DNA of 64,000 nucleotides from Clostridiales bacterium (GTDB taxonomy: Bacteria > Bacillota > Clostridia > Christensenellales > Aristaeellaceae): assembly GCA_015056245.1 (NCBI GenBank), contig SVGQ01000003.1:2689-66688 (forward strand), read 5' to 3'. Positions 3,056-23,154 of this stretch are shown here, one piece after another. The notes beneath the pieces are model-generated. The model was given only the letters and a program-made list of their open reading frames with translations, was not told where the DNA came from and did no database searches. The first letter of the stretch is position 1. Each line of letters begins with the position of its first letter. The position numbers and the translations under genes were made by a program.

Positions 3056-3058
3056 GGC

Positions 3059-7529: not shown

Positions 7530-7591
7530 CTGCGGCTCATTTGTGGTGAATGAAAGCGGTTATGAAGAAAGGGGTAGCATTTTAGCCATAA

Positions 7592-8629: not shown

Positions 8630-8667
8630 TCCACCTATCCGGAGTACCGATGTTCAGACTATCTGAC

Positions 8668-8813: not shown

Positions 8814-8950
8814 TACCCATCAGACAGTGCTGATGTGATGAATAAAAGGAGATGATATCATAGTATTCATCTCATACTCAGCATTCTTTGAATGTGTAGC
8901 CGTATGATTCATCATGCTCAAATGGGGATTGGGGATTTTTCCCCAACAAG

Positions 8951-8992
8951 AAAAACCGACAGAGAAGCAGCTGGCTCTCTCTGTCGGTTTTT
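8951..8992. terminator. Bidirectional terminator-like hairpin
   Basis: A perfect 15-bp stem, AAAAACCGACAGAGA (8951-8965) with TCTCTGTCGGTTTTT (8978-8992). Confidence 0.5.
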
Positions 8993-9205
8993 CTCATGTG
9001 TGGCCACACATGCATTGCTTGCTGCTATAAATTGTTTCTCGCTTTTTGATCTATCGAACTACGTGAAAAAAATGGATGGGCTTGTTGTGTATGTGGCAGA
9101 CTATATCATGGAACATGAGATTACTGTATACATAACATCGGAAAAAACATCTAGGGCTTAATATGAAATATCAAAAAACTCCTTATCCCCCCTATCAAAC
9201 AGCAC

Positions 9206-9247
9206 CGCCATCCGCTAGTTTATTCACATCGCGGATGGCGTTTTTTT
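9206..9247 (+). terminator. Rho-independent terminator (upstream transcript unknown)
   Basis: CGCCATCCGC (9206-9215) pairs with GCGGATGGCG (9231-9240) and is followed by TTTTTTT. Confidence 0.55.
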
Positions 9248-9381
9248 CTCGTTTCAATCAAACAATCTGCAATTGAAATGGTTATGATAATCAAAAAACA
9301 GAATGCTTCCTGCTGAAAACATGAAATACAAACGAGTGATACAACCGTCAGCTCCAGACAGATCGGGCTTGATTGACAAGC

Positions 9382-9945
9382 TCAAATGTTTACGGAAGCC
9401 ATTCGGTACAAATCCACTTCCGAAAACATAAGGACAGCAACATCATTATCTTGAAGCTGATTAACAATTTTGACAATAATATTATGATTTCTGAACTCAT
9501 CCATTTCGGTATTTTCGTCAAATTGAGTGTAATACAGTCCGAATGTTATGTAGTTGTTTGGCGCACAATTTGACGAAAGGAAGCGAGGCTCCACATTTTC
9601 AGTTGCATGACCATCATATCCATACTCTGTATAGCCTTTTGGTCTTGAATGAATGTTCTGGATGATTTTTTGGTATATCTTAATCGACTGATCCTTGTTC
9701 CGATTTTGCTCGGCATCCGTCTCGTTAGTAAAATATATCGAGATGTATTCTCTATCGGACAAGGATAGTTGAGTATAATCAATGTGATTCATCAATCGAA
9801 AGTATTTGGAGATTGTCGAACAATACACTTGCGTTTTCAGAAGTGGTTTGATCCTTTTGCTATGTAACACTTCTTCAAATCCTTCTAACTTATAATGCGA
9901 GTACAGGTATTGAAGCAGGGACATTTCAAAATATGGGTTATTCAT
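9382..9945 (-). CDS. Hypothetical protein (187 aa), no recognisable motif
   Basis: An AT-rich ORF with ordinary composition lying 104 nt downstream of the XRE gene on the same strand. The overlapping ORFs 9373..9573 and 9546..9782 are shorter and low-complexity. Confidence 0.65.
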   Translation of the reverse strand: MNNPYFEMSLLQYLYSHYKLEGFEEVLHSKRIKPLLKTQVYCSTISKYFRLMNHIDYTQLSLSDREYISIYFTNETDAEQNRNKDQSIKIYQKIIQNIHSRPKGYTEYGYDGHATENVEPRFLSSNCAPNNYITFGLYYTQFDENTEMDEFRNHNIIVKIVNQLQDNDVAVLMFSEVDLYRMASVNI

Positions 9946-10049
9946 CGCTCAGCTCTCCATGCTTTTATTGTAATCCGTTTTTTGACAATCCAGTATGGAT
10001 GATCTGATGTAATTATTACATGAACCTCGCTTAAAACCAATAGGAACAT

Positions 10050-10352
10050 TTATTTCATTGAGCTAACAAGTTCCATCAGCATTTCCTTTTGTTTGGGTTC
10101 CAAGGCAGCCCAATGGATAAAGAACTGCTGCTGTTCGGGCGTCAACTCAACCATATTCCCCTCAGCAAAGAATTGGGATAGCGTTATTCCGAAGCCATTG
10201 CAAAGAGCGCGCAAGGAAGGAATCGTAGGTTCTGTATTTCGACGCCACATATTCGATATGGTGGTTTGGGCAAGTCCGGAACGCTTGGCAAGCTCATAAA
10301 CCGTCCAACCACGTTCATCCATCAGTTCTTTGATACGCTTCTTTGTATCCAT
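10050..10352 (-). CDS. XRE-family helix-turn-helix regulator (100 aa)
   Basis: GGAGG lies upstream of ATG 10352. The HTH_3 pattern is ERGWTVYELAKRSGLAQTTISNMWRRNTEPTIPSLRALCNGFGITLSQFF. Confidence 0.85.
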   Translation of the reverse strand: MDTKKRIKELMDERGWTVYELAKRSGLAQTTISNMWRRNTEPTIPSLRALCNGFGITLSQFFAEGNMVELTPEQQQFFIHWAALEPKQKEMLMELVSSMK

Positions 10353-10424
10353 TCCAATGCCTCCACACGTTTCGATAGTCATATTTTACGGAACATTTGA
10401 GTAGCACAAAAGAAGTCATAAGGG

Positions 10425-10454
10425 TTGTAATATACATACCATATGGTATATAAT
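10425..10454 (+). promoter_or_regulatory. Candidate promoter with an overlapping 14-nt palindrome in the XRE/resolvase divergent region
   Basis: TTGTAA (10425-10430), an 18-nt spacer and TATAAT (10449-10454). The perfect palindrome ATACCATATGGTAT (10436-10449) overlaps the spacer and -10, and is a plausible XRE operator. Confidence 0.4.
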
Positions 10455-10582
10455 GGGTGAATCATATGAACGGTAACAAAAGGGGACGATTCGATGAAGT
10501 AACATTTGTTGGTGTATCATATGACGATCTGGGCGCTTTCTGTAGAATATAGCGGAAATGATTATTCACAGGAGGCAAAGCG

Positions 10583-11089
10583 ATGACACACACAATGTAT
10601 GGATATGTTCGTGTATCCAGCAAGGAGCAGAATGAAACAAGGCAATTACTTGCAATGGACGAGTTTGGGGTCGATAGGAAAAATGTCTTTCTTGAAAAAC
10701 AGTCAGGTAAGGATTTCAACAGACCAGTCTATAAAGCCCTTTTACATTGCCTGAAAACAAACGATGTGTTGGTTGTGAAAAGCATTGATCGTCTTGGCAG
10801 AAACTATGACGAGATTCTTGAGCAATGGAGATTTATCACCAATATTGTTTTGCAGTTGTTATCATATGTTGCTCAAACAGAAAGAGAGTTAATTAGGCAA
10901 AGACAAGCTGAAGGGATTGCCGCAGCAAAAGCCCGTGGAGTTCACTTTGGTCCAAAGCCAATGACCCCACCTTCGCAATTTCAACAGTATCACATTCTGT
11001 GGCAAGACGGTAAAGTTTCAGCAAGGGAAGCTGCCCGACAACTTCATGTTTCGCATAAGACATTTCTGAAGTGGGTAAAAACAAAATAG
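10583..11089 (+). CDS. Small serine recombinase (resolvase/invertase family), apparently with an internal in-frame deletion (168 aa)
   Basis: GGAGG lies 7 nt upstream of ATG 10583. The catalytic N-terminus is YGYVRVSSKEQ, with SIDRLGRN, the E-helix VAQTERELIRQRQAEGIAAAKARG and a C-terminal HTH. The segment between DRLGR and AQTER is only 23 aa, versus 43 aa in my recalled Tn3 resolvase sequence. Confidence 0.8.
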   Translation: MTHTMYGYVRVSSKEQNETRQLLAMDEFGVDRKNVFLEKQSGKDFNRPVYKALLHCLKTNDVLVVKSIDRLGRNYDEILEQWRFITNIVLQLLSYVAQTERELIRQRQAEGIAAAKARGVHFGPKPMTPPSQFQQYHILWQDGKVSAREAARQLHVSHKTFLKWVKTK

Positions 11090-11322
11090 TGCTGCCTAGT
11101 CTTCTAAACACAGAAACTATTTTGGGAAAAATTGTGGACAATCGCCAACGTCGTGTGGTATTATTAAATTGATGCAAAATATGACAATATTGGACGTTTT
11201 CAGATGCTTTTTTCCGAAATGAAAAGCGGTGGTGGTTTCCTACAATCGGCACCATTTTCATTTGGGACGCTTAGCATCTGTAATACCAGACATTGTTATT
11301 GATGTTTGAAAGGGGTATTCCT

Positions 11323-12045
11323 ATGAGATCATCGGTGCTTGCTTATCGGCTTTTGTCGCTTCTCTTAGTTATGCTGCTGTTGCCAATGAGTGCATTCGCG
11401 TATGTGTACGATGAGAATGTCAGTTACTATGAATCGTTGCCTGCGGTAGAACAATATATGAAAACAATGAAATCACCGACACAAACAATCATTGAGAGCG
11501 ATAATGTGAAAGGTGAAGATCATCGAATCAGTATCTATAAGGGGTGTCACGAAAGACTGCAGGCACTTGGATATTGTTTGTCAGACTATAACAGAAACCG
11601 GTACTATTCTGACGATTATGTAACAGCAGTCTCCATATTTGCTCAACAGATGGGACTTGGTGATTGTTTTGATGGGCAAAAAACGACACCATTCCTTCGG
11701 GCAGTGATTATGGCAGACGGGGTTGCTCAACCCGTCATTGTTGCTCCGATCAACCATCGTCTCTACTATACCAAGAATGAGAAAGTATATTCCTTGAAAG
11801 AACTTGTTCAAGCCAAACCGGCTGAGATGGTCTGCTGGAAAGGAACAGTAGCAGATGTGAAACTGCTTTCTGGAACGAAGGTGCGATATACAGTAAGCTG
11901 TGAGGATGAAACCTTCGTCGTAGAATTTGTTCATCCGACCAGAAGTTCTACTTTCCTGAAAGATGATAATGTCATTGTTTATGGCAGAGTCGTTGCTAAT
12001 GAGGATGTACAGATTTTGGCAGATATGATTGCCTATTCGAAATAA
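11323..12045 (+). CDS. Secreted protein with a possible peptidoglycan-binding-like segment (240 aa)
   Basis: The signal peptide is MRSSVLAYRLLSLLLVMLLLPMSAFA. HERLQALGYCLSDY...AVSIFAQQMGLG resembles a PG_binding_1-type repeat. The C-terminus is beta-rich. It is the first gene of the co-directional cassette. Confidence 0.7.
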   Translation: MRSSVLAYRLLSLLLVMLLLPMSAFAYVYDENVSYYESLPAVEQYMKTMKSPTQTIIESDNVKGEDHRISIYKGCHERLQALGYCLSDYNRNRYYSDDYVTAVSIFAQQMGLGDCFDGQKTTPFLRAVIMADGVAQPVIVAPINHRLYYTKNEKVYSLKELVQAKPAEMVCWKGTVADVKLLSGTKVRYTVSCEDETFVVEFVHPTRSSTFLKDDNVIVYGRVVANEDVQILADMIAYSK

Positions 12046-12081
12046 ACAAGATCAACTAATATATACCGAAAAGAGGGACTG

Positions 12082-13749
12082 ATGATGAAAAAAAGAGCAT
12101 GGTTCAGCGTAATGCTGGTTTGCTTAATCATGTTGATGTGCTCTTGTACGGCTGTACCACCAGATCAGAATCCGAGTGGTAACATCGGAGGCTTGGAAAC
12201 ACCACCCCCTACTGACATTCTTACGGATGAAGCGGAAGAAAACTCTGATTCATCTGCGTTGGTTGATAGCGTCACTCCGGCTCCTTTGGTGCCATTCACA
12301 GGCATTCATCAGGTACAGGTGTTTGTTGACGCAACGATGCCGATGATGGGTTTTGTTGATATGGAGGAGCGTTCCGATTATATCACGCTTATGGAATCCT
12401 GTCGTACTGCAGCTGCACAATGTTTTCCAAATGGGCGAGAATATGCTTATCGCATCGACATTGACCAACCAATAGAAAACGCGGGTCTTGTCAATGGACT
12501 CTCGTTGCAGGAAGCATCTTCTCCCAGCTTCTATCTCTCCTCGGATTTGACACATTATCCAGCAAAGGTATATTCCGCTCCTTCTGACTCGCACCGTTCT
12601 TCTGAACGTTTTAATGAATTCCATTTGAGTTATTACCATGCGTATGGTAAAGCGGAACCGGCAACTGACATTCAAACGCAGAATCCTGTCGCGTGGGCAA
12701 TCAATCAGATGGATCCATCTCTCGATAATATCGCCATTATTTTCAGCGATTTGTCGGAACTTCAGTTTGATTCCTCCAAACTTACCACAGCGATTCAGAC
12801 GCAAGTATTTGGACAGGGAAAGACAATCGGTATTTTGGCTATGCAAAGCAACTTTGCAGGTTTGGTACCCATGAGCAATGGCTGGTTTGTCTGGGGGTCT
12901 GAACCAACGGGTACACTTTGGAAGATGCTCGATTATACGCATTATGAGCTTGGCATCTCCATTGATCCTGAGCTTCGCCAAACAGCGCAGCGCCCGCTTT
13001 ATGTTATCTGTGTGGGCGAATCAGATGCAGTTAATCGCTTTGTAAATACACTGAACAGCCAGATGAATATCCGCTTTACCGATGAAGCAACTCAATTGAA
13101 TTTGCGGGCTTTCGATGTGGATTTCGGCACCAAGAACGTGAATATCGCAGACTCCGTCTCGTTGGCATCCAACACCCAAGAGGGCATGAATTTGGTGGAT
13201 GAGGGAGACCGATTGACAACTGTTACGCTTCAGCGTATGCGTGGTGAATACGATGAAAACGCAAATCCTCGCTACGCTATCTATGAAGTGACTTATCCAG
13301 CTAAACTCACAGATCCCCGCACGAGTTTTGGTTTTAGCCCCAGCGATTTCAACGTACAGGCTGCGATGGTCAAGTATGATAAAGGCAACATTGTTACGCC
13401 TATGGGTACTCCCACAGAAGACCAGTTGAAATGCACTGTAGTCGGTACGGAGCTGATGGGAACGGATGTAAAAGTGAGTATTCGTGTCGATTTCCCGTTC
13501 CAGAAGTTTGATCGTGGTAATTATGATGTAACGATTTCCATGATGCTGAATCCCCCCGGAGATGTTGGCGAACCATTGTGGGTATCGGATTATCATACGG
13601 ATTTCAACAGCCCCGATAGCTTTGACGGCAGTAAAACAGTAGGACTCAATGCTCTTTTCAGTCATATATCTGCTTGCCAGAAGGCTGTCATTTCTAAACA
13701 ATTCACAGCCCTGGGCGAATTCACGTTTAAGCTGAGAGTAAACGACTAA
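12082..13749 (+). CDS. Probable lipoprotein/secreted protein (555 aa); possible degenerate vWA-like core
   Basis: N-terminus MMKKRAWFSVMLVCLIMLMCSCTAVPP, a signal peptide with Cys. The strands VQVFVDATMPMMGF and NIAIIFSDLSEL recall the vWA beta1/beta4 pattern but lack a canonical DxSxS. That call is weak. Confidence 0.7.
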   Translation: MMKKRAWFSVMLVCLIMLMCSCTAVPPDQNPSGNIGGLETPPPTDILTDEAEENSDSSALVDSVTPAPLVPFTGIHQVQVFVDATMPMMGFVDMEERSDYITLMESCRTAAAQCFPNGREYAYRIDIDQPIENAGLVNGLSLQEASSPSFYLSSDLTHYPAKVYSAPSDSHRSSERFNEFHLSYYHAYGKAEPATDIQTQNPVAWAINQMDPSLDNIAIIFSDLSELQFDSSKLTTAIQTQVFGQGKTIGILAMQSNFAGLVPMSNGWFVWGSEPTGTLWKMLDYTHYELGISIDPELRQTAQRPLYVICVGESDAVNRFVNTLNSQMNIRFTDEATQLNLRAFDVDFGTKNVNIADSVSLASNTQEGMNLVDEGDRLTTVTLQRMRGEYDENANPRYAIYEVTYPAKLTDPRTSFGFSPSDFNVQAAMVKYDKGNIVTPMGTPTEDQLKCTVVGTELMGTDVKVSIRVDFPFQKFDRGNYDVTISMMLNPPGDVGEPLWVSDYHTDFNSPDSFDGSKTVGLNALFSHISACQKAVISKQFTALGEFTFKLRVND

Positions 13750-13765
13750 TGCAGGAGGAAACAAC

Positions 13766-14323
13766 ATGAATAAGGCATCTGTTATTCGTTGGGTATGGAT
13801 TGCTGCAATCTACGCAATTCTTGGAGGTATCATTTTTGCTGTAATGGGACTGTGGTTTGAGGCTATCTACATCACGCCTCCCGGTTACAGCACTGATGCT
13901 TGGCAGACCAATTTGAATATTACGTTCATGAATACATTGCTGTGCTCCTTGGGGTTGCTGCTTCTCTGGAACATCCTCTACAGCATGCCCCTTTTGGGCG
14001 GCCGCTATAAAGGTGCAAGTGTTTATGTGCTTCTGATTCTCTGGCTCCTGCTGCATATTGTTGCCAGCCTTGGTATGCTTCTGCTGACGGTACTCCCGAT
14101 TCTTGTTGCCAATCGTGCTCCCTTCTGGCTGTTCTTCCGTCTGTTGAAAGAGTGGGCCATCGCATATGGCGGCGACTTCCTGTTCCTGCATCTGTTGCCC
14201 TCTTTGTTAATCATTCCTTATTTCCTCAGCCTGACGTTGTTTAGCCCGGAAATCATCGCACCAAAATTTGCTATGTTTAATAAGTTGCGTCAGCACATTG
14301 GTTTGAAATACAGCAAGAATTGA
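13766..14323 (+). CDS. Polytopic integral membrane protein (185 aa)
   Basis: AGGAGG lies upstream of ATG 13766. There are about five hydrophobic helices and no recognised family. Confidence 0.75.
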   Translation: MNKASVIRWVWIAAIYAILGGIIFAVMGLWFEAIYITPPGYSTDAWQTNLNITFMNTLLCSLGLLLLWNILYSMPLLGGRYKGASVYVLLILWLLLHIVASLGMLLLTVLPILVANRAPFWLFFRLLKEWAIAYGGDFLFLHLLPSLLIIPYFLSLTLFSPEIIAPKFAMFNKLRQHIGLKYSKN

Positions 14324-14347
14324 TTGAATTTGTAGGGGGTTAACAAC

Positions 14348-15910
14348 ATGGCACATTTGTTTGCTTTTTTCTGTGGTGGCAGTGGCGCACGCGTTGCGGA
14401 AACATATGCCTTCTGCGCAGCAATGGGTTTGATGAGACATGATATTCCCACCCACATTTGTCTTTGTGATGCAGATCATCAGAATGGTAATGAGGCTACC
14501 GCCTTTGGCACAATTAAGAATTATGCAACTGTGCGTAATGAGATGTATCGAGATGGTCATACTCCTGCAGGAGCGGGGGATTTCTTTGGCACACCTCTCA
14601 CTGTTGGCCAATGGGCTTTGGATGGTCGTAAGGGCACATATGCTGGTCAGGCACAGTATACGCTGGATCAGTTGGGCAGCGCTGGCGATGCCGGCGTTGT
14701 AGCCAGTGCGCTTTTTACTGAAAAAGAAAGAACTCGGGACATCAAAAACTTGGGTTTCTTTGCCCACCCCAATGTGGGTAATGCCATTGTTCAGGCAGCC
14801 ATTTTATATGAGCAGGATGTGGCATCGAATCAAAACATCACCACAGAATATAAAAGAACAAAGCAATTAATTATTCAGCAACTGAATGCTGGTGACAGAG
14901 TTTACGTAGTGTTTGTTGGTTCTTTATTCGGCGGAACAGGAGCCGCTTGTATGCCGACAATTGCACAGGATTTGCGTACATCCATTCAGGACTATTGCGC
15001 ACAAAAGGGTATGCTGCAATTTGATCAAATTTTCCATATGAGTGCAGTTATGTTGCTCCCTTATTTTACTATTCCGCCCAAAGAAGATGGTGAAGAATTG
15101 GTTGATGGTGGTGTGTTTGATTCCAGCACAAAGATTGCGATGGATCACTATTTCCGCAAACACCCAAATCTTTTTGAGACGATCTACCCTATCGGCCTTC
15201 CAACGAGCTACGTCCAGCCTGGTAAAGCTGAGTATGGTGGTGAAAAGCAAAAGAATCCGTCCTCGCTGGTTGAATGGGTAGCGGCTATGGCTATCCGCGA
15301 CTTTATTATGACGCATGATGTGAGTGCTGCCATGCCCGTCCACAGTGAGCTTTGCTGTGCTTCCTTGGATGTGGATGGTGAAAACAACTATGTGCTTCGC
15401 AACAGTAGTTTTATGAGCCCTTCATTTGGTGATGCTTTCAATCGTTGGAATGAATTTGCAGCATTCTATGCGCTTTACCTGTATCCAAATATTAAGCTGG
15501 GTAATGCAAGAAAAAAGGCACCCACCAATTGGTATCGTAACTATATTATCATGGCAGCAGACAATCCAGCGATTGATCAGATGTTTACATTTGTCAAAAC
15601 ATACTATACCAGCATTGAAAATCTCCTTGGTTTAAGATTGAACGACGGTGCACAGCCCGTAAATGAGTTTGTGAATTCCGATTGTCTGGTAAAAATCAGC
15701 AGCATTCTGGAGCATCTTGGGACTGTTGAGCGTATGAGTGATCGTGATGTTCGAAATGCCTATAACGCATTAAAGCATGGGTTTGATATTCCAATAGATC
15801 GAGTGCAGCGAAATACCGTGCCTCGTGATCTGGAAAAGGCGGCTACTACGGAAAACCAAACGGCAGGTGGTCTTGGTCAGCTGCTTCAGTTCGTTGCCAA
15901 AGCGCTTTGA
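14348..15910 (+). CDS. Tubulin/FtsZ-like GTPase-fold protein (520 aa), divergent
   Basis: FFCGGSGARV (aa 7-16) is T1-like, LGFFAHPNVGNA (aa 135-146) is T3-like, and VYVVFVGSLFGGTGAAC (aa 185-201) matches the tubulin signature pattern GGGTGxG. There is no P-loop and no signal peptide. Confidence 0.75.
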   Translation: MAHLFAFFCGGSGARVAETYAFCAAMGLMRHDIPTHICLCDADHQNGNEATAFGTIKNYATVRNEMYRDGHTPAGAGDFFGTPLTVGQWALDGRKGTYAGQAQYTLDQLGSAGDAGVVASALFTEKERTRDIKNLGFFAHPNVGNAIVQAAILYEQDVASNQNITTEYKRTKQLIIQQLNAGDRVYVVFVGSLFGGTGAACMPTIAQDLRTSIQDYCAQKGMLQFDQIFHMSAVMLLPYFTIPPKEDGEELVDGGVFDSSTKIAMDHYFRKHPNLFETIYPIGLPTSYVQPGKAEYGGEKQKNPSSLVEWVAAMAIRDFIMTHDVSAAMPVHSELCCASLDVDGENNYVLRNSSFMSPSFGDAFNRWNEFAAFYALYLYPNIKLGNARKKAPTNWYRNYIIMAADNPAIDQMFTFVKTYYTSIENLLGLRLNDGAQPVNEFVNSDCLVKISSILEHLGTVERMSDRDVRNAYNALKHGFDIPIDRVQRNTVPRDLEKAATTENQTAGGLGQLLQFVAKAL

Positions 15911-15934
15911 CCTATGAACAAGGAGTGAAATCAG

Positions 15935-18900
15935 ATGGCTAAGAAAAAAGATACACAGTCTCAGTATATAACAAAATCTATGCTTCCCGAGACGAATGGT
16001 TTTATCACCTGGCCTGCAAACGTCACGAACAATACGTTCAATCATTTGGGAAATACCCATACGTTGGATACCTTGCGCAAAACTCTGCCCGGCAAGATCA
16101 CCAACGAAGCAATTATTCCCAATATGTTGATGCCTGCATATCGCTTGGAAAGCCGCATGCGCTGTAACGATCAGGCAGAAGCCCAGAGCGCTCTGCAGGA
16201 TGAACGTGTCAAAGAATGGTTGCGTGTGCTTTGCGCTGTGCTTTTCAATGATGATGATCACATGCAATGCCATGAGTTGAATCTGAAAAATGTGTTGCAT
16301 GATTCGGCTTATCCAATGATTATTCGTGTGCTTGCAAAGACGCTGATTGAAACTGGCAACAGTAATCCCACATTCAAACTTTTCAAGCAGCGTACGGGTC
16401 CCGGCCCCGATGACTTTAAGCCTGTTGCCTTTACCTATTCAGGGCTGAGAATCGGTGTGTGTCCAGTGGTGGAACTGAATCCAGACGACTTCAGCGGCGT
16501 TCAGAACGATCCGCAGGGCTGGTTAAGCTGCGACGATCCGATTGAATACTTGAAAAGACCTCAAAACGCTGCTTGTCGTGCAAGAATTGATGACTATCTG
16601 ACATATACGAATATTGGTAATGGCACACACTCCTATGAGGTATTCGAGGAAGAATACCGTATCATCTGTGATGAAATCCGTAGTCAGCTTGCGCCAGCAG
16701 ATGGTACAAAGGCAGCTTTCTTTCCGCTGCGTATCAAAGACTCTGTCAAAGGGAAGCCTCCAATCAGCTATATTCATTGGTTCACAGATTCTATTCTTTG
16801 CGTAAGCTGTGATCAAACCGGTGAAGGCGTTTTGTCCGTGCCGGACAAAGACTTCAAATGTGTACTGCCTATCAAGAGTCTTTGTATAGGCGAAGGTGGC
16901 AATATCAATGAGGTTTGTAATTCCGCATCGGTCAATGTAATGGGCGACGACCTCATTGTCAGCTTTACATATAATAATTCGTTCAATCAGCGTCGCTACA
17001 CTCCGGACAAGCAGATTTCTTGCATTGGCGATGAAAACCCGCTGGGCAGCGTTATGCTGTGGCCAAATAAGACCTGTTCGGAATGGGACCGCTATTTCTC
17101 TTATTTGAGCAACAACTGTCTTGGACGTCCTGAAATGGACTTGGATCCGTTTTCGATGGAAGTCTATGACGGAACGATCTGGCATACTCAAACGACAGGT
17201 TTCCGCAGAATGCAGCGAGAAGAAAACAACATTACACAAAACTTCGTTTTTGACTATGTCATTGAGACGAATGTTTTTCCTTCTGCTATCAGCTTGAAGA
17301 GGAGGAATGAAGAACTTGGTATGTTGGTACCCACTGTGTCTGCATTACCTCCCGTTCCCGATGGCGCAAAAGGCCAATTGGGCGTGGACTTTGGTACAAC
17401 AAACACGATTGCTTATTTCCACTCTGATAAAGTTGATCCCGAAGTTGTTGCAATAAGTGACAGCCGTAAAGTGCTTCTGCAAGATCGCTCGAAAGTCAGC
17501 GATAGCAACACGTTGCTCTCCTTCTTGTTTGCCCCTGATACGCATACTGGAAGCAATATCCCATTTAAAACCGCCGTACAGGTTTTCCCCGCTCCGCAAG
17601 CTAAGGCTTTCTTGAATGCTATTGCGCCGTTGCAGTATCGTGTGGACTTAAACGAGAATATGCGGGAGCTCTTGAGTCTGGATGACGATCTAAAGTGGCC
17701 GGATGACATGGCTGCTGCAACTAATCCGACCAATTCCGTTGCATTTTTGGAGTATGTAATGCTTCTTTGGCTGTGGGAAGTCAGAAAGAAGTATAATGTG
17801 TTGCCTAATCGGTATGTATATACTTATCCGGGCGCTATGGATGTTGGGTTTATTCAGAATCTGACAAACAGCGTACTGCAGCGCATGCCTGCGCGTTATG
17901 CTGCTGGCGGTTATTCGGTAGATTATGCTACTGAGGCTTCTGTTGTCATCAATTTCCTTGAAGATAATAGCGTGCTGGGGAAATACGCCAGTAAAGGATT
18001 GTCTTGGGTTGATAGCGAAGTTGGCTACCTGCTTATGGACATTGGTGGCGGTTCTGTCGATGTTTCCCTTTGGCAGGGATCAAAGCATAATGTAGCCCTG
18101 TGTACAGAACTATCACTTAGCGCTTTTGCTGGTAACCGAATTCAATTGGAACAGGTATACCCCGCCGGTGCCAATAGGCCACAATTGAATCTGCTGGCAG
18201 AAATAATGGGTTATTCCAAGGATCAACTTGAAAACAGCAAGAACATCAGTGACGCTGTTGCATTCTATCAATTTGCCAAGGGCGATGCCGTTCATTTGAA
18301 TGCTTTCCGCCAGCAGTGGACGGCTCACATTGATACCGTACGGCAGGGAATGGAAAATCGGGCTTACGATAGTAAGGCACCTATGCGCGGCAAGTATCGT
18401 AAGACGCTGGAGATGTACTTCCACTTTATGTTCTTCTTGAATGGGTATGTATATGGACAGGCCCTGCAAGATGGACGTTTGAAGTTGGTACCTGGTACAT
18501 TTGCCATCATGATGGGTGGTAATGGCTCCAGAATGTATGATCTGTGCGGCAGTAATTCAGCGGATTCCGAGCTGTTTGACAAGGCCAACATCCAAATGTT
18601 TGCACATGGTATGAGATATGCGGGTTATGAAGGAACACTTGCAGGAGTAGAGGTGGCTGTTGTTCCCTCTATTATGCACAAGCATGAGGTAGCTTATGGT
18701 GCCTCGAAATTTGTGCAGCCGCCGGTAAAGGCACTCCCGGTTGGGAAAGCATTTTCGCTTACTTCATTCAGCGATGAACCAGTTGCAACAAGCGCAACTC
18801 CTGCTTGGCTGAATGTCGAAGAAGCGGCAATAATCCGGCCGAAGGCAAAAGAGTTTTTCCTTCATTACCTGGACGGATTGAACAAAGTGAGAGAAAACGG

Positions 18901-19057
18901 CAGAAATTTCATGATGACGAACTTTGGTTATCAGCTTGATGAGAATTTCTTCAACAAGGCACAAGCTGTCATCCATGAAGGCTCTCTTCCTCAAGCTGCG
19001 GCTGCGATCTTCCGCACACTGCTGACCACGATTGGAAGCAGACATTTCCAAGATTGA
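15935..19057 (+). CDS. Large Hsp70/actin-fold ATPase-domain protein (1,040 aa) with a novel ~470-aa N-terminal region
   Basis: AAGGAG lies upstream of ATG 15935. VDFGTTNT (aa 484-491) is the phosphate-1 motif, LLMDIGGGSVDVS (aa 699-711) is phosphate-2, and IMMGGNGSR (aa 858-866) is the adenosine motif. They occur in the canonical order and spacing. Confidence 0.8.
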   Translation: MAKKKDTQSQYITKSMLPETNGFITWPANVTNNTFNHLGNTHTLDTLRKTLPGKITNEAIIPNMLMPAYRLESRMRCNDQAEAQSALQDERVKEWLRVLCAVLFNDDDHMQCHELNLKNVLHDSAYPMIIRVLAKTLIETGNSNPTFKLFKQRTGPGPDDFKPVAFTYSGLRIGVCPVVELNPDDFSGVQNDPQGWLSCDDPIEYLKRPQNAACRARIDDYLTYTNIGNGTHSYEVFEEEYRIICDEIRSQLAPADGTKAAFFPLRIKDSVKGKPPISYIHWFTDSILCVSCDQTGEGVLSVPDKDFKCVLPIKSLCIGEGGNINEVCNSASVNVMGDDLIVSFTYNNSFNQRRYTPDKQISCIGDENPLGSVMLWPNKTCSEWDRYFSYLSNNCLGRPEMDLDPFSMEVYDGTIWHTQTTGFRRMQREENNITQNFVFDYVIETNVFPSAISLKRRNEELGMLVPTVSALPPVPDGAKGQLGVDFGTTNTIAYFHSDKVDPEVVAISDSRKVLLQDRSKVSDSNTLLSFLFAPDTHTGSNIPFKTAVQVFPAPQAKAFLNAIAPLQYRVDLNENMRELLSLDDDLKWPDDMAAATNPTNSVAFLEYVMLLWLWEVRKKYNVLPNRYVYTYPGAMDVGFIQNLTNSVLQRMPARYAAGGYSVDYATEASVVINFLEDNSVLGKYASKGLSWVDSEVGYLLMDIGGGSVDVSLWQGSKHNVALCTELSLSAFAGNRIQLEQVYPAGANRPQLNLLAEIMGYSKDQLENSKNISDAVAFYQFAKGDAVHLNAFRQQWTAHIDTVRQGMENRAYDSKAPMRGKYRKTLEMYFHFMFFLNGYVYGQALQDGRLKLVPGTFAIMMGGNGSRMYDLCGSNSADSELFDKANIQMFAHGMRYAGYEGTLAGVEVAVVPSIMHKHEVAYGASKFVQPPVKALPVGKAFSLTSFSDEPVATSATPAWLNVEEAAIIRPKAKEFFLHYLDGLNKVRENGRNFMMTNFGYQLDENFFNKAQAVIHEGSLPQAAAAIFRTLLTTIGSRHFQD

Positions 19058-19126
19058 CGATAAGCCCTTACCATTCACAATGCAGACCCGGTTATTTCCG
19101 GGTCTGCACATATTGGAGGTGAAACC

Positions 19127-20068
19127 GTGGTGGATTTGCATTATGATGTGCCAATGGTTCTTCTGCCCGAGCAGATGATCGCAAATGGAGAAGTTTGGGA
19201 TGCCTTTCAGGAAGTCCAGATCAAGCTTGCACAACAGGGTTCATTGATTGAAACAGAGTTTTTAGATCAACAAAACGCTATTCAGACAGCCCATACGCAA
19301 GTGATGCAGGGTCTGGAGCTGCAAAATCAGCAGCTGGAGAAACAACACCTGTTCAATAAGGTCAATGTTGGCCTGTTGGGTGCTGTTTTGCTGTTTGCCA
19401 TCATTCAGGTTATCATAACTGCCATTCAGAACAGCAAGATCCGCAAGATGCGGGAAACAATCGACCGACTGGATGAAGTGAATCGTTGGTATGCCAGTTG
19501 TCAGGAACAGCAGGAGAAAGCACAGAATGCGATTTGGAATAAGCTCTGTGCTGTTGGCGACCAGACTGTCTCTACATCAAGAGCAATACATGAAGTAAAA
19601 TTGATGCTGCAAGAGCGGCCCAACCCCATTTCAGAAAAAACCGATGACCCGCCACCGACTATTCCCCAGCCTCCCAAGCCTCCGCTTCATACAGCGTTAT
19701 CTCAAATGCTGATACAGGTTGCAGCAAGTCAAAGCGAAGGCTGGGGAGCGAAGGTTGAAGCATATTTGGCAAATGAATATCACCTGAATATCGGTTACTA
19801 TCGTCGGCGTGATCCATCAGGTAACCTGTATCGGGGAGTTGTTGAATTGGTTGACGATGATAAAGCACCATTCTTTGGTGTGGCTACCGATGGTCGTTTA
19901 CTATTATTGCCAAACAAAGCCTACTTGAATGCATTGGCTATTTGTGCTGGAGAATTCTTCAATGGTTATGAAACCGCTAGTGGTGGCATTTCCAGTATGA
20001 ATTGTGCAGTATTAAACAAAGATGGGGACTTTTGGCGACTTGTCAGTCCTGGCAGTATCAATCAATAA
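19127..20068 (+). CDS. Bitopic coiled-coil membrane protein with a Pro-rich linker and a C-terminal globular domain (313 aa)
   Basis: GTG start at 19127 with GGAGG about 8 nt upstream. Gln/Glu-rich heptad-like segments flank one TM helix (VNVGLLGAVLLFAIIQVIITAI). A DDPPPTIPQPPKPP linker is followed by a ~120-aa domain of unknown family. Confidence 0.7.
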   Translation: MVDLHYDVPMVLLPEQMIANGEVWDAFQEVQIKLAQQGSLIETEFLDQQNAIQTAHTQVMQGLELQNQQLEKQHLFNKVNVGLLGAVLLFAIIQVIITAIQNSKIRKMRETIDRLDEVNRWYASCQEQQEKAQNAIWNKLCAVGDQTVSTSRAIHEVKLMLQERPNPISEKTDDPPPTIPQPPKPPLHTALSQMLIQVAASQSEGWGAKVEAYLANEYHLNIGYYRRRDPSGNLYRGVVELVDDDKAPFFGVATDGRLLLLPNKAYLNALAICAGEFFNGYETASGGISSMNCAVLNKDGDFWRLVSPGSINQ

Positions 20069-20129
20069 TACGATGGCTGGTTTGGTATGTTGTTAACTGC
20101 CATACCAGCCATTTTGTTAAGGAGTTATT

Positions 20130-21611
20130 ATGAAACGAGCAATACTGAAGTTGCTGATAGCCCTGCTACTGATTTCCTTGCTGACTTCTTGCACAATGGC
20201 TCAGCCAACAGGTATAGTGGATGACAACCTTTTAGGATTAAGGAATCAAACGCAAGAACCATATACTGGTATGTTCTCCAATCCATACGCTCCGGTTACA
20301 TCAACTCCACTTCCACAGGGGAGTCTGATGTTTGTTGATGTGGATGAAGCAAATGCGCTCAGAGCGGAACGTGAAGAAAGAAAGCATGACCCATTCCTGT
20401 TCGTTGAGATGCCTGAGCCTATTGTCATTGACAAACCGACAGATACACCTCCGCCGGTCTATGAAACGACACCCCCACCAGAAAAACCATCTACACCTAC
20501 GCCTGTGCCCAATAAAACAGAACCGTCAACGTACATTTTTGAACTTTGTGGTTCTGTCGGAACACGTTATGCCTATCAGCAATTAACGCAAAAACAAAAG
20601 GAATTATTCTCTGAGCTCTACGATGGGATTGTTGAGAATCAGGCATCCATCCAGATAAAGGGAACTTATCCTTATTCGGATTATATTCGTGTTTACCGAG
20701 CGATTAACTTCGATTGTCCAGAGCTATTCAATATCAAATGGCCCATGAAATGCTATGTATCTGCAAATTCAGTTGACGAATTTGTTTCTCGTGTTGAACC
20801 CCAATATTACATGAGCAATTCTGAGTACAAACAGCGTCTGGAAATAGTAATAGGAAAGATTAAGGGAATGTCTTCTGCGGCCAGTTTTGGTTCTACAGAT
20901 GTGGATCATGAGATCTATATACAGCGCTATCTGATTGAGAATGTTACATATGTACTTCAGGAAGACGCCCGAAGAGCAGATCGAGCGTATTTGGATGGCT
21001 ATGCCAAATGTGATGGATACTCTAATGCGACGATGTTAGCGCTTCGTTATTATGGAATCCCTTGCCTGAATATTACTGGTTGGACATATGAACAAGATGG
21101 AAAACGAGCTGATAATGCACATCAATGGAACATGGTTCAGCTCGGCGGTAATTGGTATCATCTCGATACAACTTGGAATGATCGTAATGGCAACTTCCCA
21201 TTTGTTCTTCAAACCTCTCAGAGCAAGCATGTGTATTTCTTGCCATATATGAATACTTCTGATGCACGGATGCTTCATAGAAGAACGGTTGATATGGAAA
21301 GCAATACATGGGATTTGCCAAAGGCCAACACAGAAACGTTATCATACTATAGGATGAATGGTTTGTCTGTTAGAAACACCGAGGACGCACGCAATAATTT
21401 GTCTTCACAGATTTCCAATATAGCTCAAAACGGTGGGGAATATGCGATTGCATATTTTGATAAACCCTCCGATGTCGATGCTTTTGTTTCTTCCGTTCAG
21501 TCCTTCATCAATGGTTGGAAAGGATGGAATAATGAAAGAATCAACAGATACTATTATAACTATTGGTCTGATATAGGTGTGATATATCTGTTTGATATGT
21601 CTTTCCGTTGA
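20130..21611 (+). CDS. Lipoprotein with a transglutaminase-like (Cys-His-Asp) core domain (493 aa)
   Basis: Lipobox LLTSC (Cys21) and a Pro/Thr-rich linker. The core YAKCDGYSNATMLALRYYGIPC...NAHQWNMVQLGGNWYHLDTTWND fits the transglutaminase-core triad (Cys294, His331, Asp346). Confidence 0.8.
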   Translation: MKRAILKLLIALLLISLLTSCTMAQPTGIVDDNLLGLRNQTQEPYTGMFSNPYAPVTSTPLPQGSLMFVDVDEANALRAEREERKHDPFLFVEMPEPIVIDKPTDTPPPVYETTPPPEKPSTPTPVPNKTEPSTYIFELCGSVGTRYAYQQLTQKQKELFSELYDGIVENQASIQIKGTYPYSDYIRVYRAINFDCPELFNIKWPMKCYVSANSVDEFVSRVEPQYYMSNSEYKQRLEIVIGKIKGMSSAASFGSTDVDHEIYIQRYLIENVTYVLQEDARRADRAYLDGYAKCDGYSNATMLALRYYGIPCLNITGWTYEQDGKRADNAHQWNMVQLGGNWYHLDTTWNDRNGNFPFVLQTSQSKHVYFLPYMNTSDARMLHRRTVDMESNTWDLPKANTETLSYYRMNGLSVRNTEDARNNLSSQISNIAQNGGEYAIAYFDKPSDVDAFVSSVQSFINGWKGWNNERINRYYYNYWSDIGVIYLFDMSFR

Positions 21612-21712
21612 GTATGTGGCATAGGCAAACAATGACGATTTTTGTTTGCCTATTCATAGCCATAAAAGACTCGATTGTAATTTGTGTATGGCCATTACTA
21701 GGAGGATATTTG

Positions 21713-23139: not shown

Positions 23140-23154
23140 TAAGGAGTATGAACG

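What the first reader, a model, noticed from the sequence alone, without database searches (positions are those of the whole stretch)
14348..15910. Divergent tubulin/FtsZ-superfamily member
Three G-rich loops lie in the order and spacing of the FtsZ/tubulin GTPase domain. FFCGGSGARV (aa 7-16, nt 14366-14395) follows an N-terminal strand. LGFFAHPNVGNA lies at aa 135-146. A hydrophobic strand plus GGTGAA lies at aa 185-200 (GGTGAA at nt 14930-14947), resembling the tubulin signature GGGTG(S/T)G. There is no Walker A motif. The C-terminal ~300 aa do not resemble the FtsZ C-domain or the TubZ tail. The gene lies outside any division or partition context.
Basis: partly seen in the sequence, partly recalled or inferred. 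Interest (0 to 1): 0.7.

Follow-up and report, generated by a model that had tools for sequence, protein, structure and literature searches.

The report
Divergent tubulin-like GTPase in membrane cassette
The gene really does encode a very divergent relative of tubulin/FtsZ, and it always travels with a giant Hsp70/actin-like ATPase and membrane proteins in an uncharacterised, horizontally mobile cassette that many other bacteria wire to Zorya-like proton motors.

Summary
The protein's own Pfam hit is sub-threshold (Tubulin_2, 13 bits against a 27-bit cutoff). But 36 of 60 aligned homologues hit PF13809 and 16 of 60 hit PF00091. A confident AlphaFold model (pLDDT 86.7) retrieves only tubulin, FtsZ, CetZ, TubZ and PhuZ structures. 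Loops T1-T6 and helix H7 are conserved. No invariant T7 catalytic acid is present, and the C-terminal ~200 aa form a family-specific helical domain.

The family has about 1,600 clusters at 50% identity, nearly all ~500 aa. It sits in a conserved cassette: lipoprotein, small multi-TM protein, tubulin-like protein, ~1,100-aa Hsp70-NBD/actin-fold ATPase, TM protein. In 37 of 64 related loci, ZorA/ZorB-like stator genes and variable nuclease or protease genes follow; the window lacks these. Here the cassette lies on a ~17-kb low-GC island next to recombinase genes in a Clostridiales MAG, annotated as hypothetical.

Best reading: a nucleotide-gated assembly module of an envelope-associated, probably conflict or defence, system. 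This function is inferred and has not been shown. It lacks the P-loop GTPase and GAP1 that define the published tubulin/HSP70 conflict systems.

The parts
14348..15910 (+). Tubulin/FtsZ-superfamily (Tubulin_2-like) protein, 520 aa ('TUB')
   Evidence: ORF. Family alignment A1. Pfam on family members. AlphaFold model and Foldseek searches. dN/dS = 0.094.
14366..14395 (+). T1-type loop FFCGGSGARV after strand S1 (G10, G11 and G13 invariant)
   Evidence: In the model, strand E2-9 is followed by helix H10-25.
14468..14485 (+). T2-type motif DADHQN (D41 invariant; D43 and N46 at 97%) after strand S2
14750..14785 (+). T3-type loop LGFFAHPNVGNA (G136 and G144 invariant, P141 at 97%); aligns with FtsZ GLGAGANPEVG
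14921..14947 (+). Strand S4 plus T4 signature-like loop SLFGGTGAA (S192, F194 and G195-A199 invariant)
   Evidence: The only direct Pfam Tubulin_2 match covers aa 162-215.
15059..15067 (+). PYF motif at the end of S5 (Y239 and F240 invariant, P238 at 98%); aligns with FtsZ 'KPF' (T5)
15236..15313 (+). GGxxQxN (G297, Q301, N303) plus helix aa 307-322 with universally acidic E309; putative T6 and H7
15314..15907 (+). Family-specific all-helical C-terminal domain (aa 323-520); no FtsZ_C or Tubulin_C equivalent and no invariant T7 acid
   Evidence: DSSP on the model. Conservation scan. Full-length (1-495) profile matches across the family.
15935..19057 (+). Conserved partner, 1040 aa: unknown N-terminal ~470 aa plus Hsp70-NBD/actin-fold (ASKHA) ATPase domain (~aa 478-925)
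   Evidence: Homologous across distant loci. Profile matches MreB at 2.1e-6. Foldseek matches Hsp70/DnaK NBD at about 7e-9. Pfam FtsA, Ppx-GppA and MreB hits in members. Adjacent to TUB in 56 to 68 of 88 loci.
17387..17407 (+). ASKHA phosphate-1 motif DFGTTNT (D485 and G487 invariant in all three partner alignments; F486, T488, T489, N490 invariant in the 15-sequence alignment)
18038..18067 (+). ASKHA phosphate-2 motif DIGGGSVDVS (D702, G704, D709 invariant in all three partner alignments)
12082..13749 (+). Protein A, a 555-aa lipoprotein conserved two genes upstream of TUB; possible degenerate vWA/MIDAS-like motif (DATMPM)
   Evidence: jackhmmer finds it in 30 loci. Alignment A5. vWA tests were negative or weak.
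13766..14323 (+). Protein B, 185 aa with about 4 TM helices; conserved in position across loci (2-5 TM, 130-190 aa)
   Evidence: Sequence homology was detected only to close relatives.
19127..20068 (+). Protein E, 313 aa with 1 TM helix; conserved in position (+2, 1-2 TM)
20130..21611 (+). Transglutaminase-core lipoprotein, 493 aa; part of the cassette in close relatives
   Evidence: Pfam PF01841 at 7e-12. Synteny in L001 and L002. A transglutaminase-core gene also follows the ZorAB-like genes in L063.
21608..22177 (+). 189-aa membrane or lipoprotein; last gene shared with the cassette of close relatives
7500..24300 (.). Low-GC island (37-49% GC against 55-61% in the flanks) that carries the cassette, recombinase genes and BspA-type LRR genes
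   Evidence: Composition profiles. Pfam recombinase and resolvase hits.

Best explanation
The ORF encodes a highly divergent member of the tubulin/FtsZ GTPase superfamily. It belongs to a coherent family of ~500-aa proteins allied to Pfam Tubulin_2 (the FtsZ-like 1 lineage). The family keeps the nucleotide-binding loops T1-T6 and helix H7. It has replaced the canonical C-terminal domain with a helical domain and has no recognisable T7 catalytic loop.

The protein is not a division or partition protein. It is one subunit of a conserved, co-inherited, envelope-associated cassette: lipoprotein A, small multi-TM protein B, the tubulin-like protein, a ~1,100-aa Hsp70-NBD/actin-fold ATPase, and TM protein E.

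Most likely mechanism (inferred). The membrane and extracytoplasmic subunits report an envelope event. The tubulin-like protein binds GTP and assembles, or changes oligomeric state, at the membrane. The Hsp70-like ATPase loads, remodels or resets that assembly. The assembly then acts as a threshold or scaffold for lineage-specific effectors. In many diderm relatives the same module is coupled to a ZorAB-like proton-driven stator and followed by nuclease or protease genes. That points to a conflict (anti-phage or anti-invader) role.

Shown: homology, fold, motif conservation, cassette conservation, island location. Inferred: GTP binding, assembly, interaction with the ATPase, defence function.
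For: Superfamily membership:
- Homologues reach E = 6e-31 and many carry PF13809.
- 36 of 60 family members hit PF13809 and 16 of 60 hit PF00091.
- Model pLDDT is 86.7. Foldseek PDB and viral top hits are exclusively tubulin, FtsZ, CetZ, TubZ or PhuZ.
- Invariant motifs sit in the T1, T2, T3, T4, T5 and T6 positions and in H7.

Real, constrained gene:
- dN/dS = 0.094.
- 2,792 library representatives at E <= 1e-3 and 1,621 at <= 1e-30, nearly all 480-530 aa and matching end to end.

Cassette:
- A ~1,100-aa partner is present in 68 of 88 loci. Six of the remainder are truncated contigs.
- The partner is homologous across phyla.
- Its profile matches MreB at 2e-6 and its model matches Hsp70 NBDs at about 7e-9 with TM up to 0.58.
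- Its candidate catalytic residues K587, E667 and D702 are invariant.
- TUB and partner divergences correlate (Pearson 0.99, n = 55).
- Protein A is conserved in 30 loci.
- The layout of lipoprotein at -2, multi-TM protein at -1 and TM protein at +2 holds in 63 loci.
- Intergenic gaps are 16-69 nt.

Conflict or mobile flavour:
- ZorA-like genes occur in 37 of 64 related loci and ZorB-like genes in 32 (PADLOC E = 1.7e-11 and 1.1e-19).
- These are followed by SNase, aspartyl protease or transglutaminase-core genes.
- In the window the cassette lies on a low-GC island with recombinase genes.
- The same cassette occurs on cyanobacterial plasmids.
- A published precedent has tubulin and HSP70 proteins as assembly components of GTPase-centred conflict systems (PMC7159879).
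Against: - The window protein itself fails Pfam thresholds. Sequence-only PDB searches find nothing, either with the single protein or with the family profile.
- Foldseek TM-scores are low (0.25-0.38 normalised to the target) and E-values modest (about 1e-4).
- The strict tubulin signature [SAG]GGTG[SA]G is not matched: the sequence reads F-GGTG-A-A.
- No invariant acidic residue follows H7. The semi-conserved WxD motif is NSS in this protein. GTP hydrolysis activated by polymerisation in the FtsZ manner is therefore doubtful.
- No PADLOC model hits any of the five window cassette proteins scanned (A, B, TUB, ASKHA, E).
- The window's own cassette has no ZorAB-like genes, no nuclease, and no experimentally characterised relative. 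The defence role therefore rests on context in distant relatives.
- A Selenomonadaceae subclade has the tubulin-like gene without the ATPase partner.
Confidence: 0.55

Rival explanations
1. This is a housekeeping membrane-remodelling or envelope-biogenesis cytoskeleton. The tubulin-like protein polymerises on the membrane and the actin-fold ATPase tethers or organises it, by analogy with FtsZ-FtsA. The purpose would be vesicle formation, envelope maintenance or surface-protein deployment, not conflict. This is the 'membrane remodelling' idea proposed for FtsZl1 by Makarova and Koonin.
For: - Tubulin-fold and actin-fold genes are adjacent and co-diverge.
- Pfam FtsA hits occur in 7 of 22 partner proteins.
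- All other cassette proteins are membrane proteins or lipoproteins.
- MotA/ExbB-OmpA stators also power non-defence envelope machines.
- The window cassette is followed by surface LRR proteins, and giant Cna_B adhesins lie further downstream.
- PMC2875224 proposes membrane remodelling for the related family.
Against: - The distribution across phyla is patchy, and the best identity to the window protein among species-representative genomes is only 30%.
- The cassette occurs on a low-GC island with recombinases and on plasmids.
- Variable nuclease or protease genes lie at the cassette's end in relatives.
- The stators carry a ZorA-type long tail and score better against ZorA/ZorB models than against generic MotA.
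Confidence: 0.25
2. This is a pseudo-GTPase scaffold. The protein keeps the tubulin fold and may bind nucleotide, but it neither hydrolyses GTP nor polymerises. It serves as a static adaptor between the membrane proteins and the Hsp70-like ATPase, which is the only active NTPase.
For: - No invariant T7 acid, and the window clade has lost even the semi-conserved WxD motif.
- The canonical C-terminal domain that builds the longitudinal interface is replaced.
- The T4 loop deviates from the strict signature.
- The partner's candidate ATPase catalytic residues are invariant.
Against: The nucleotide-contacting loops T1-T6 and the acidic H7 residue are all invariant or nearly so, in an alignment with only 23% mean column identity. 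That is hard to explain without nucleotide binding. Divergent tubulins such as TubZ and PhuZ still polymerise despite atypical C-termini (established knowledge).
Confidence: 0.15
3. This is a TubZ/PhuZ-like DNA-segregation protein that partitions the mobile island or a plasmid.
For: TubZ and PhuZ are among the structural matches. The gene sits on an island with recombinases, and relatives occur on plasmids.
Against: - No TubR-like DNA-binding gene lies in the cassette.
- The conserved neighbours are lipoproteins, TM proteins and an Hsp70-like ATPase.
- Most copies are chromosomal.
- There is no match in 50,697 phage records.
- The protein has no TubZ-type flexible C-terminal tail.
Confidence: 0.04

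Closest known systems
Pfam Tubulin_2 (PF13809) / FtsZ-like 1 (FtsZl1) family (Makarova and Koonin 2010, PMC2875224)
   Same: - The closest sequence family. 36 of 60 homologues hit PF13809, and the window protein's only Pfam hit is to it.
- Like FtsZl1, it conserves T1-T4/H5, lacks an identifiable T7 and FtsZ C-domain, coexists with membrane proteins, and has OmpA-family (MotB-like) neighbours in relatives.
   Different: - FtsZl1 proteins are ~1,000 aa with an extended coiled coil. This family is ~500 aa with a compact helical C-domain.
- FtsZl1 operons feature vWA proteins, protein kinases and P-loop GTPases. Here there is no kinase or P-loop GTPase, and vWA is unproven.
- The Hsp70-fold partner and the MotA/ZorA-like gene were not reported for FtsZl1.
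DO-GTPase / GAP1-N2 'GTPase-centric' conflict systems with tubulin or HSP70 components (Kaur, Burroughs, Iyer and Aravind 2020, PMC7159879)
   Same: - Both are mobile, membrane-proximal neighbourhoods that use tubulin-domain and HSP70-domain proteins as predicted NTP-dependent assembly components.
- Some of those tubulins have an uncharacterised helical C-domain, and some HSP70s lack the peptide-binding domain.
   Different: - The defining DO-GTPase, GAP1 and FNIII components are absent.
- In the published systems the tubulin and HSP70 themes are non-overlapping. Here the two are obligately adjacent.
- Those systems are nearly absent from cyanobacteria, whereas this cassette occurs there.
Zorya anti-phage systems (ZorAB plus ZorC/D, ZorE or ZorF/G; PMC11946911, PMC11890865)
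   Same: In 37 of 64 related loci the cassette includes a ZorA-like channel with a long helical tail. In 32 of 64 it also includes a ZorB-like OmpA-domain protein. Variable effector-like genes follow.
   Different: - The window's cassette has no ZorAB-like genes.
- None of the known Zorya effectors is present.
- No published Zorya subtype contains tubulin-, FtsZ- or Hsp70-like proteins.
FtsZ / CetZ / TubZ / PhuZ / tubulin (canonical PF00091 proteins)
   Same: They share the Rossmann-like GTPase fold and the loop order T1-T6/H7. They are the best and only structural matches.
   Different: - About 10% sequence identity and low TM-scores.
- Large insertions between S2-S3 and S3-H3.
- No T7 loop, no FtsZ_C or Tubulin_C domain, and no division or partition context.

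Membership tests
Tubulin/FtsZ GTPase superfamily | Rossmann-like GTPase fold that retrieves tubulin/FtsZ structures | tested here: met
   AlphaFold model pLDDT 86.7, pTM 0.92. The top 50 PDB matches are all tubulin, FtsZ, CetZ or TubZ (probability 1.00, E about 1e-4). The top viral matches are tubulin, PhuZ and FtsZ. TM-scores are low (0.25-0.38).
Tubulin/FtsZ GTPase superfamily | Glycine-rich T1 loop after S1 and a GGTG-core T4 loop after S4, in order, with T3 between them | tested here: met
   GGSGAR (aa 10-15), GFFAHPNVG (aa 136-144) and FGGTGAA (aa 194-200). All are invariant family columns. The register against E. coli FtsZ T3, T4 and T5 was reproduced by hhalign (weak, E = 0.037).
Tubulin/FtsZ GTPase superfamily | Strict tubulin signature [SAG]-G-G-T-G-[SA]-G | tested here: not met
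   A regular-expression search finds no match. The sequence is F-G-G-T-G-A-A.
Tubulin/FtsZ GTPase superfamily | Significant match to profile PF00091 | tested here: inconclusive
   The window protein has no hit. 16 of 60 aligned homologues hit PF00091 (best E = 2.5e-5). The family profile finds no PDB sequence.
Tubulin/FtsZ GTPase superfamily | T7 'synergy' loop with a catalytic acidic residue after helix H7 | tested here: not met
   No column after aa 309 is more than 60% acidic. The 60% Asp column (WxD) is Ser354 in this protein.
Tubulin/FtsZ GTPase superfamily | Canonical C-terminal (FtsZ_C / Tubulin_C) alpha/beta domain | tested here: not met
   Residues 323-520 are predicted to be almost entirely helical. 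There is no Pfam FtsZ_C or Tubulin_C hit.
Tubulin/FtsZ GTPase superfamily | GTP binding, GTP hydrolysis and nucleotide-dependent polymerisation | not testable with these tools
   Requires purified protein.
Pfam Tubulin_2 (PF13809) / FtsZl1 | Score at or above the Pfam gathering threshold (27 bits) | tested here: not met
   13 bits, E = 0.059, aa 162-215 only. 36 of 60 homologues match at E <= 0.01, best 1.4e-11.
Pfam Tubulin_2 (PF13809) / FtsZl1 | FtsZl1 architecture: N-terminal FtsZ-like domain, extended coiled coil and helical C-domain, about 1,000 aa (PMC2875224) | tested here: not met
   The protein is 520 aa with no long coiled coil in the model. The family is uniformly 480-530 aa.
Pfam Tubulin_2 (PF13809) / FtsZl1 | Operon partner with a vWA domain | tested here: inconclusive
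   Protein A's consensus VYxDxTxSM...IIxTDL resembles a MIDAS motif plus strand beta4. Pfam and PDB profile searches are negative. hhalign against genuine vWA proteins gives only E = 0.008 and probability 5%. A true vWA protein sits in the L003 cassette.
DO-GTPase/GAP1 conflict systems (PMC7159879) | TRAFAC-clade DO-GTPase (Walker A/B) encoded in the neighbourhood | tested here: not met
   No Walker A motif in any window cassette protein. Only 5 of 63 loci have any Walker-A-like string near the core. No Pfam hits.
DO-GTPase/GAP1 conflict systems (PMC7159879) | GAP1 (N/M/C domains) and an FNIII-repeat or GASH protein | tested here: not met
   No such Pfam domains in the window cassette proteins or in 22 partner proteins.
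Zorya | ZorA (MotA-like channel with a long tail) and ZorB (MotB/OmpA-like) genes | tested here: not met
   Absent from the window. A ZorA-like gene is present in 37 of 64 related loci and a ZorB-like gene in 32 of 64.
Zorya | Known effectors ZorC/D, ZorE or ZorF/G | tested here: not met
   PADLOC returns no hit for the five window cassette proteins scanned, A, B, TUB, ASKHA and E. The downstream proteins of related loci hit only ZorA and ZorB models.
TubZ-type (type III) partition systems | Adjacent TubR-like DNA-binding adaptor and centromere; plasmid or phage location | tested here: not met
   The conserved neighbours are membrane proteins, lipoproteins and the ATPase. No phage match. Only 6 plasmid matches. 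Centromere repeats were not searched for.
Hsp70/actin (ASKHA) ATPases (partner protein) | Phosphate-1 and phosphate-2 motifs and an NBD fold | tested here: met
   DFGTTNT and DIGGGSVDVS align to MreB (E = 2.1e-6). Foldseek matches Hsp70 NBDs at about 7e-9 with TMt up to 0.58. No Hsp70 substrate-binding domain was found.

The most novel reading that the evidence does not exclude
The tubulin-like protein and its giant Hsp70/actin-fold partner form the cytoplasmic core of a previously undescribed, widespread envelope-spanning immune system. In diderm bacteria it would amount to a new Zorya-like type, in which a ZorAB-like proton motor signals to a tubulin-fold polymer instead of directly to a nuclease. 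Nucleotide-gated assembly of a cytoskeleton-like structure would provide the threshold or containment step. The Clostridiales version in this window would be a stator-less monoderm variant on a mobile island.
Probability: 0.35. Interest if true: 0.85.

Novelty: new variant of a known kind. Interest (0 to 1): 0.62.

Why it matters
At the gene level, this turns a 'hypothetical protein' (MBE5793254.1) into a recognisable, if extreme, tubulin/FtsZ relative. It also defines a ~500-aa subfamily with about 1,600 clusters at 50% identity that current profile thresholds largely miss.

At the system level, it exposes an obligate pairing of a tubulin-fold GTPase with an actin/Hsp70-fold ATPase inside a membrane cassette. 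That cassette is frequently wired to Zorya-like stators. I found no description of this combination in the literature library available here.

If the conflict reading holds, it would give a tractable case of cytoskeleton-type polymers used as immune signalling or containment devices in bacteria. It would also extend Zorya-type envelope sensing beyond nuclease effectors. If the housekeeping reading holds, it would be a new FtsZ/FtsA-like membrane-remodelling pair. Either way it tests how far the tubulin fold can diverge (no T7 loop, new C-domain) and still function.

Tried and rejected
- Direct profile searches of the single protein gave only a sub-threshold Tubulin_2 hit in Pfam, and nothing useful in NCBIfam or PADLOC.
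- Sequence-only PDB searches with the protein and with the 60-sequence profile found nothing relevant.
- The protein comparison profile comparison against FtsZ failed internally. I used it only for loop register.
- The word-indexed homologue search for the 1040-aa partner found only 6 proteins, then 17 with a diverse alignment. Partner distribution was therefore measured with my own HMMs on fetched loci.
- The idea that protein A is a vWA domain was not supported by Pfam or PDB profiles and only weakly by hhalign. It is reported as unproven.
- The idea that the cassette is a published DO-GTPase/GAP1 system was rejected for lack of the defining GTPase and GAP1.
- The idea that the window itself encodes ZorAB-like proteins was rejected.
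- The TubZ-like partition role was rejected on context.
- Promoter and terminator scans were uninformative: counts were near the shuffle expectation.
- Structural superposition onto FtsZ-GDP, to check that the loops surround the nucleotide, could not be done because model coordinates are not exposed.
Full report
**1. The observation**

ORF 14348-15910 on the + strand encodes 520 aa. An AGGGGG ribosome-binding site precedes it.

- FFCGGSGARV: aa 7-16, nt 14366-14395.
- LGFFAHPNVGNA: aa 135-146, nt 14750-14785.
- GGTGAA: aa 195-200, nt 14930-14947.

No Walker A motif is present. GGTG[AS] occurs in no other ORF of at least 80 aa in the window.

The gene is real and constrained. Against an 81%-identical relative from a human-gut metagenome, dN/dS is 0.094. 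The exact protein is MBE5793254.1, 'hypothetical protein', from an uncultured Clostridiales bacterium MAG.

**2. Is it a tubulin/FtsZ relative?**

The protein on its own is borderline:
- Its only Pfam hit is Tubulin_2 (PF13809) at E = 0.059 and 13 bits, against a 27-bit cutoff. The hit covers aa 162-215, the GGTGAA region.
- NCBIfam and PADLOC give nothing useful.
- Sequence searches of the PDB find nothing, with the single protein or with the family profile.

Homologues settle the question:
- 125 relatives were found. Seven are close (47-81% identity, all from metagenomes). The rest are ~500-aa proteins at 23-33% identity with E down to 6e-31, many carrying precomputed PF13809.
- Of 60 aligned members, 36 hit PF13809 (best 1.4e-11) and 16 hit the canonical Tubulin/FtsZ GTPase model PF00091 (best 2.5e-5).

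Structure agrees:
- An AlphaFold model built on that alignment is confident (pLDDT 86.7, pTM 0.92).
- Its top 50 PDB matches are exclusively tubulins, FtsZ, CetZ and TubZ: probability 1.00, E about 1e-4, about 290 aligned columns, TM 0.25-0.38 normalised to the target.
- The viral structure library independently returns phage tubulin, PhuZ and FtsZ first.
- The low TM-scores fit a conserved core with large insertions and a different C-terminal half.

**3. Anatomy**

The family alignment has only 23% mean column identity. Its invariant or near-invariant columns are these:

| Residues | Motif | Assigned element |
|---|---|---|
| G10, G11, G13, A14, R15 | GGSGAR after S1 | T1 |
| D41, D43, N46 | DxDxxN after S2 | T2 |
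| G136, P141, G144 | GFxxxPNxG | T3 |
| S192, F194, G195-A200, P203 | SxFGGTGAAxxP after S4 | T4 |
| P238, Y239, F240 | PYF | end of S5, T5 |
| Y268, Y280, G283 | | |
| G297, Q301, N303 | GGxxQxN | putative T6 |
| E309 | always D or E, in helix aa 307-322 | putative H7 |

An hhalign run against E. coli FtsZ is weak statistically (E = 0.037) but reproduces the register:
- GFxxxPNxG aligns with GLGAGANPEVG.
- SLFGGTGAAxxP aligns with GMGGGTGTGAAP.
- LLPYF aligns with VTKPF.

Three defining features are not met:
- The strict tubulin signature [SAG]GGTG[SA]G is absent. The sequence reads F-GGTG-A-A.
- No invariant acidic residue follows H7. The only semi-conserved one (WxD, 60% Asp) is Ser in this protein, so a T7 catalytic loop is not evident.
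- Residues 323-520 form an all-helical domain instead of FtsZ_C or Tubulin_C.

That helical domain is a family feature. In an exhaustive HMMER scan, 2,792 representatives match at E <= 1e-3 and 1,621 at <= 1e-30. Nearly all are 480-530 aa and match the profile end to end.

**4. Context: a conserved cassette**

That is true, but the context is not uninformative.

*The partner gene.* The next gene (15935-19057, 1040 aa) starts 24 nt downstream.
- It has homologues in the same position in loci whose tubulin-like proteins are only about 25% identical to this one (BLASTP E = 4e-14, 7e-11 and 2e-31).
- A profile of this partner matches MreB (E = 2.1e-6) at the phosphate-1 motif (DFGTTNT, aa 485-491) and the phosphate-2 motif (DIGGGSVDVS, aa 702-711).
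- Individual members hit Pfam FtsA, Ppx-GppA and MreB_Mbl.
- Its AlphaFold model (pLDDT 72) matches Hsp70/DnaK nucleotide-binding domains at E about 7e-9, TM up to 0.58 normalised to the target.
- Candidate catalytic residues K587, E667 and D702 are invariant.
- The N-terminal ~470 aa has no assignable fold.

*How general the pairing is.* I examined 88 loci: 80 from species-representative genomes, 7 from metagenome contigs, and the window.
- 56 have this partner immediately downstream on the same strand with a first-pass HMM. 68 have it after one iteration.
- Of the remaining 20, 6 are truncated contigs. The other 14 are a Selenomonadaceae subclade with ~462-aa tubulin-like proteins.
- Divergence of the two proteins is tightly correlated across 55 loci (Pearson 0.99, Spearman 0.91).

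*The other cassette genes.*
- The 555-aa lipoprotein two genes upstream (protein A) is homologous in 30 loci.
- The positional pattern holds across 63 loci in Bacteroidota, Cyanobacteria, Proteobacteria, Planctomycetota, Acidobacteriota and Firmicutes: a lipoprotein at -2, a 130-190-aa protein with 2-5 TM helices at -1, and a 1-2-TM protein at +2.
- Protein A's consensus (VYxDxTxSMxGY ... IIxTDL) looks like a vWA MIDAS motif plus strand beta4. Pfam and PDB profile searches are negative, and hhalign against genuine vWA proteins gives only E = 0.008. This remains unproven.

**5. A link to Zorya-like stators in relatives**

In many diderm loci the cassette continues downstream:
- A ~500-600-aa, 3-TM protein hits Pfam MotA_ExbB above its cutoff and PADLOC ZorA models (best 1.7e-11). 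It has a long helical tail.
- A ~220-250-aa, 1-TM protein hits OmpA and PADLOC ZorB models (best 1.1e-19).
- Such ZorA-like genes accompany the pair in 37 of 64 loci, and ZorB-like genes in 32.
- Variable genes follow them: SNase plus Ada zinc-binding domain, aspartyl protease, or transglutaminase core.

The window's cassette, like other Firmicutes-type, cyanobacterial and Acetobacteraceae versions, lacks these genes. It ends instead with a transglutaminase-core lipoprotein.

**6. Mobility**
- The cassette lies in a block of 37-49% GC (about 7,500-24,300) within a 55-61% GC genome.
- The left edge of that block carries a fragment of a large serine recombinase. A resolvase and an HTH gene lie just upstream of the cassette.
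- The close relatives L001 and L002 carry the same seven genes with different flanks.
- The same cassette occurs on cyanobacterial plasmids. RefSeq annotates it there as hypothetical proteins, with an occasional 'tubulin-like domain-containing protein'.
- There is no match in phage genomes.

**7. Comparison with what is known**

*FtsZl1 and FtsZl2 (Makarova and Koonin 2010).* FtsZl1 proteins are ~1,000 aa with a coiled coil, and their operons carry vWA, kinase, P-loop GTPase and OmpA-family genes. FtsZl2 is proteobacterial and has no conserved context. PF13809 is equated with the FtsZ-like sequences of that paper by a later study. The present family shares the truncated set of conserved elements and the membrane and OmpA flavour. 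It differs in size, C-domain and partners.

*GTPase-centric conflict systems (Kaur et al. 2020).* These systems include tubulin or HSP70 components. They are defined by DO-GTPase, GAP1 and FNIII or GASH proteins, and the tubulin and HSP70 themes are non-overlapping. Here no P-loop GTPase or GAP1 is present, and the two folds are adjacent.

*Zorya.* The Zorya literature recognises three subtypes and never mentions tubulin, FtsZ or Hsp70.

Further literature searches found no description of this cassette. The library covers open-access papers and bioRxiv only.

**8. Most likely mechanism**

*Shown:* superfamily homology, fold, conservation of the nucleotide-binding loops, an obligate operon partnership with an ASKHA ATPase and membrane or lipoproteins, and location on an island.

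*Inferred:*
- The protein binds GTP, because all loops that contact nucleotide in FtsZ and tubulin are invariant.
- It assembles or switches oligomeric state at the membrane complex formed by proteins A, B and E.
- The Hsp70-like ATPase loads, remodels or resets it.
- The assembly gates lineage-specific effectors, with ZorAB-like motors supplying the envelope signal in many diderm lineages.

Without a T7 loop and the canonical C-domain, any polymerisation and GTPase activation must use a non-canonical interface. It is also possible that the protein is a nucleotide-binding scaffold.

Probabilities:

| Claim | Probability |
|---|---|
| Tubulin-superfamily homology | about 0.9 |
| Functional two-NTPase membrane module | about 0.7 |
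| Conflict or defence role | about 0.4 |

**9. Verdict**

At the gene level it is a new, very divergent member of a known superfamily. The cassette around it appears to be an undescribed variant of the tubulin/HSP70-containing and Zorya-like envelope systems. That is where the interest lies.

Noticed in passing
window 30155-54928 (+) and 34487-54970 (-): A giant 8,257-aa ORF has an almost equally long (6,827 aa) ORF open on the opposite strand. The + strand protein carries a pAdhesive_15 domain near its N-terminus and many Cna_B repeats, including 279-291-nt tandem repeats at 46666-47314 and 51767-53185. It is therefore a giant surface adhesin. The antisense ORF is probably a by-product of the strongly biased composition (AT skew about 0.2, GC about 55%).
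   Followed up: partly
window 55414-63528 (+): A second very large ORF (2,704 aa) has a Cna_B domain, so it is another surface adhesin. A 916-aa ORF is open on the opposite strand (60892-63642).
   Followed up: partly
window ~7500-24300: A low-GC island (37-49% GC against 55-61% in the flanks). It contains an N-terminally truncated large serine recombinase (7652-8629; Recombinase, Zn_ribbon_recom and DUF4368 domains), a short resolvase (10583-11089), an XRE-type HTH gene (10050-10382, - strand), the tubulin-like cassette, and two BspA-type LRR proteins (22201-23139 and 23155-24231). Attachment sites were not searched for.
   Followed up: partly
L013, L017, L019, L021, L028, L038, L040, L043, L044, L052, L054, L055, L066, L083 (mostly Selenomonadaceae): A subclade of mostly shorter (~462 aa) tubulin-like proteins lacks the Hsp70-like partner downstream and has different neighbours. 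This is either a stand-alone or a differently partnered branch of the family.
   Followed up: no
L071:18188-19009; L051:10862-11515; L063:18553-19248: The genes directly after the ZorAB-like pair vary by lineage: SNase nuclease plus Ada zinc-binding domain, retropepsin-like aspartyl protease, and transglutaminase-core protein. This effector-like variability is typical of conflict systems. The window's cassette also ends with a transglutaminase-core lipoprotein (20130-21611).
   Followed up: partly
L003:5028-8854 and 130-4127: In one Firmicutes-type locus the cassette is preceded by an FHA-ABC transporter fusion and a protein with a weak TIR_2 hit. Three small vWA proteins and a PP2C phosphatase lie nearby, and a 724-aa vWA protein sits at position +3. 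These are signalling or conflict-type neighbours.
   Followed up: no
window 4687-6642 (+) and 4720-6597 (-): In the high-GC flank, a 651-aa ORF with no Pfam hit is mirrored by a 625-aa ORF on the opposite strand. Which strand is coding was not resolved.
   Followed up: no
window 15935-17340 (aa 1-470 of the partner protein): The N-terminal half of the Hsp70-like partner has conserved Trp, Pro and Tyr positions (W95, P312, Y355, P377, Y387) and a confidently predicted beta-rich region (aa ~287-470, pLDDT about 90). No detectable relative was found in Pfam or the PDB.
   Followed up: partly
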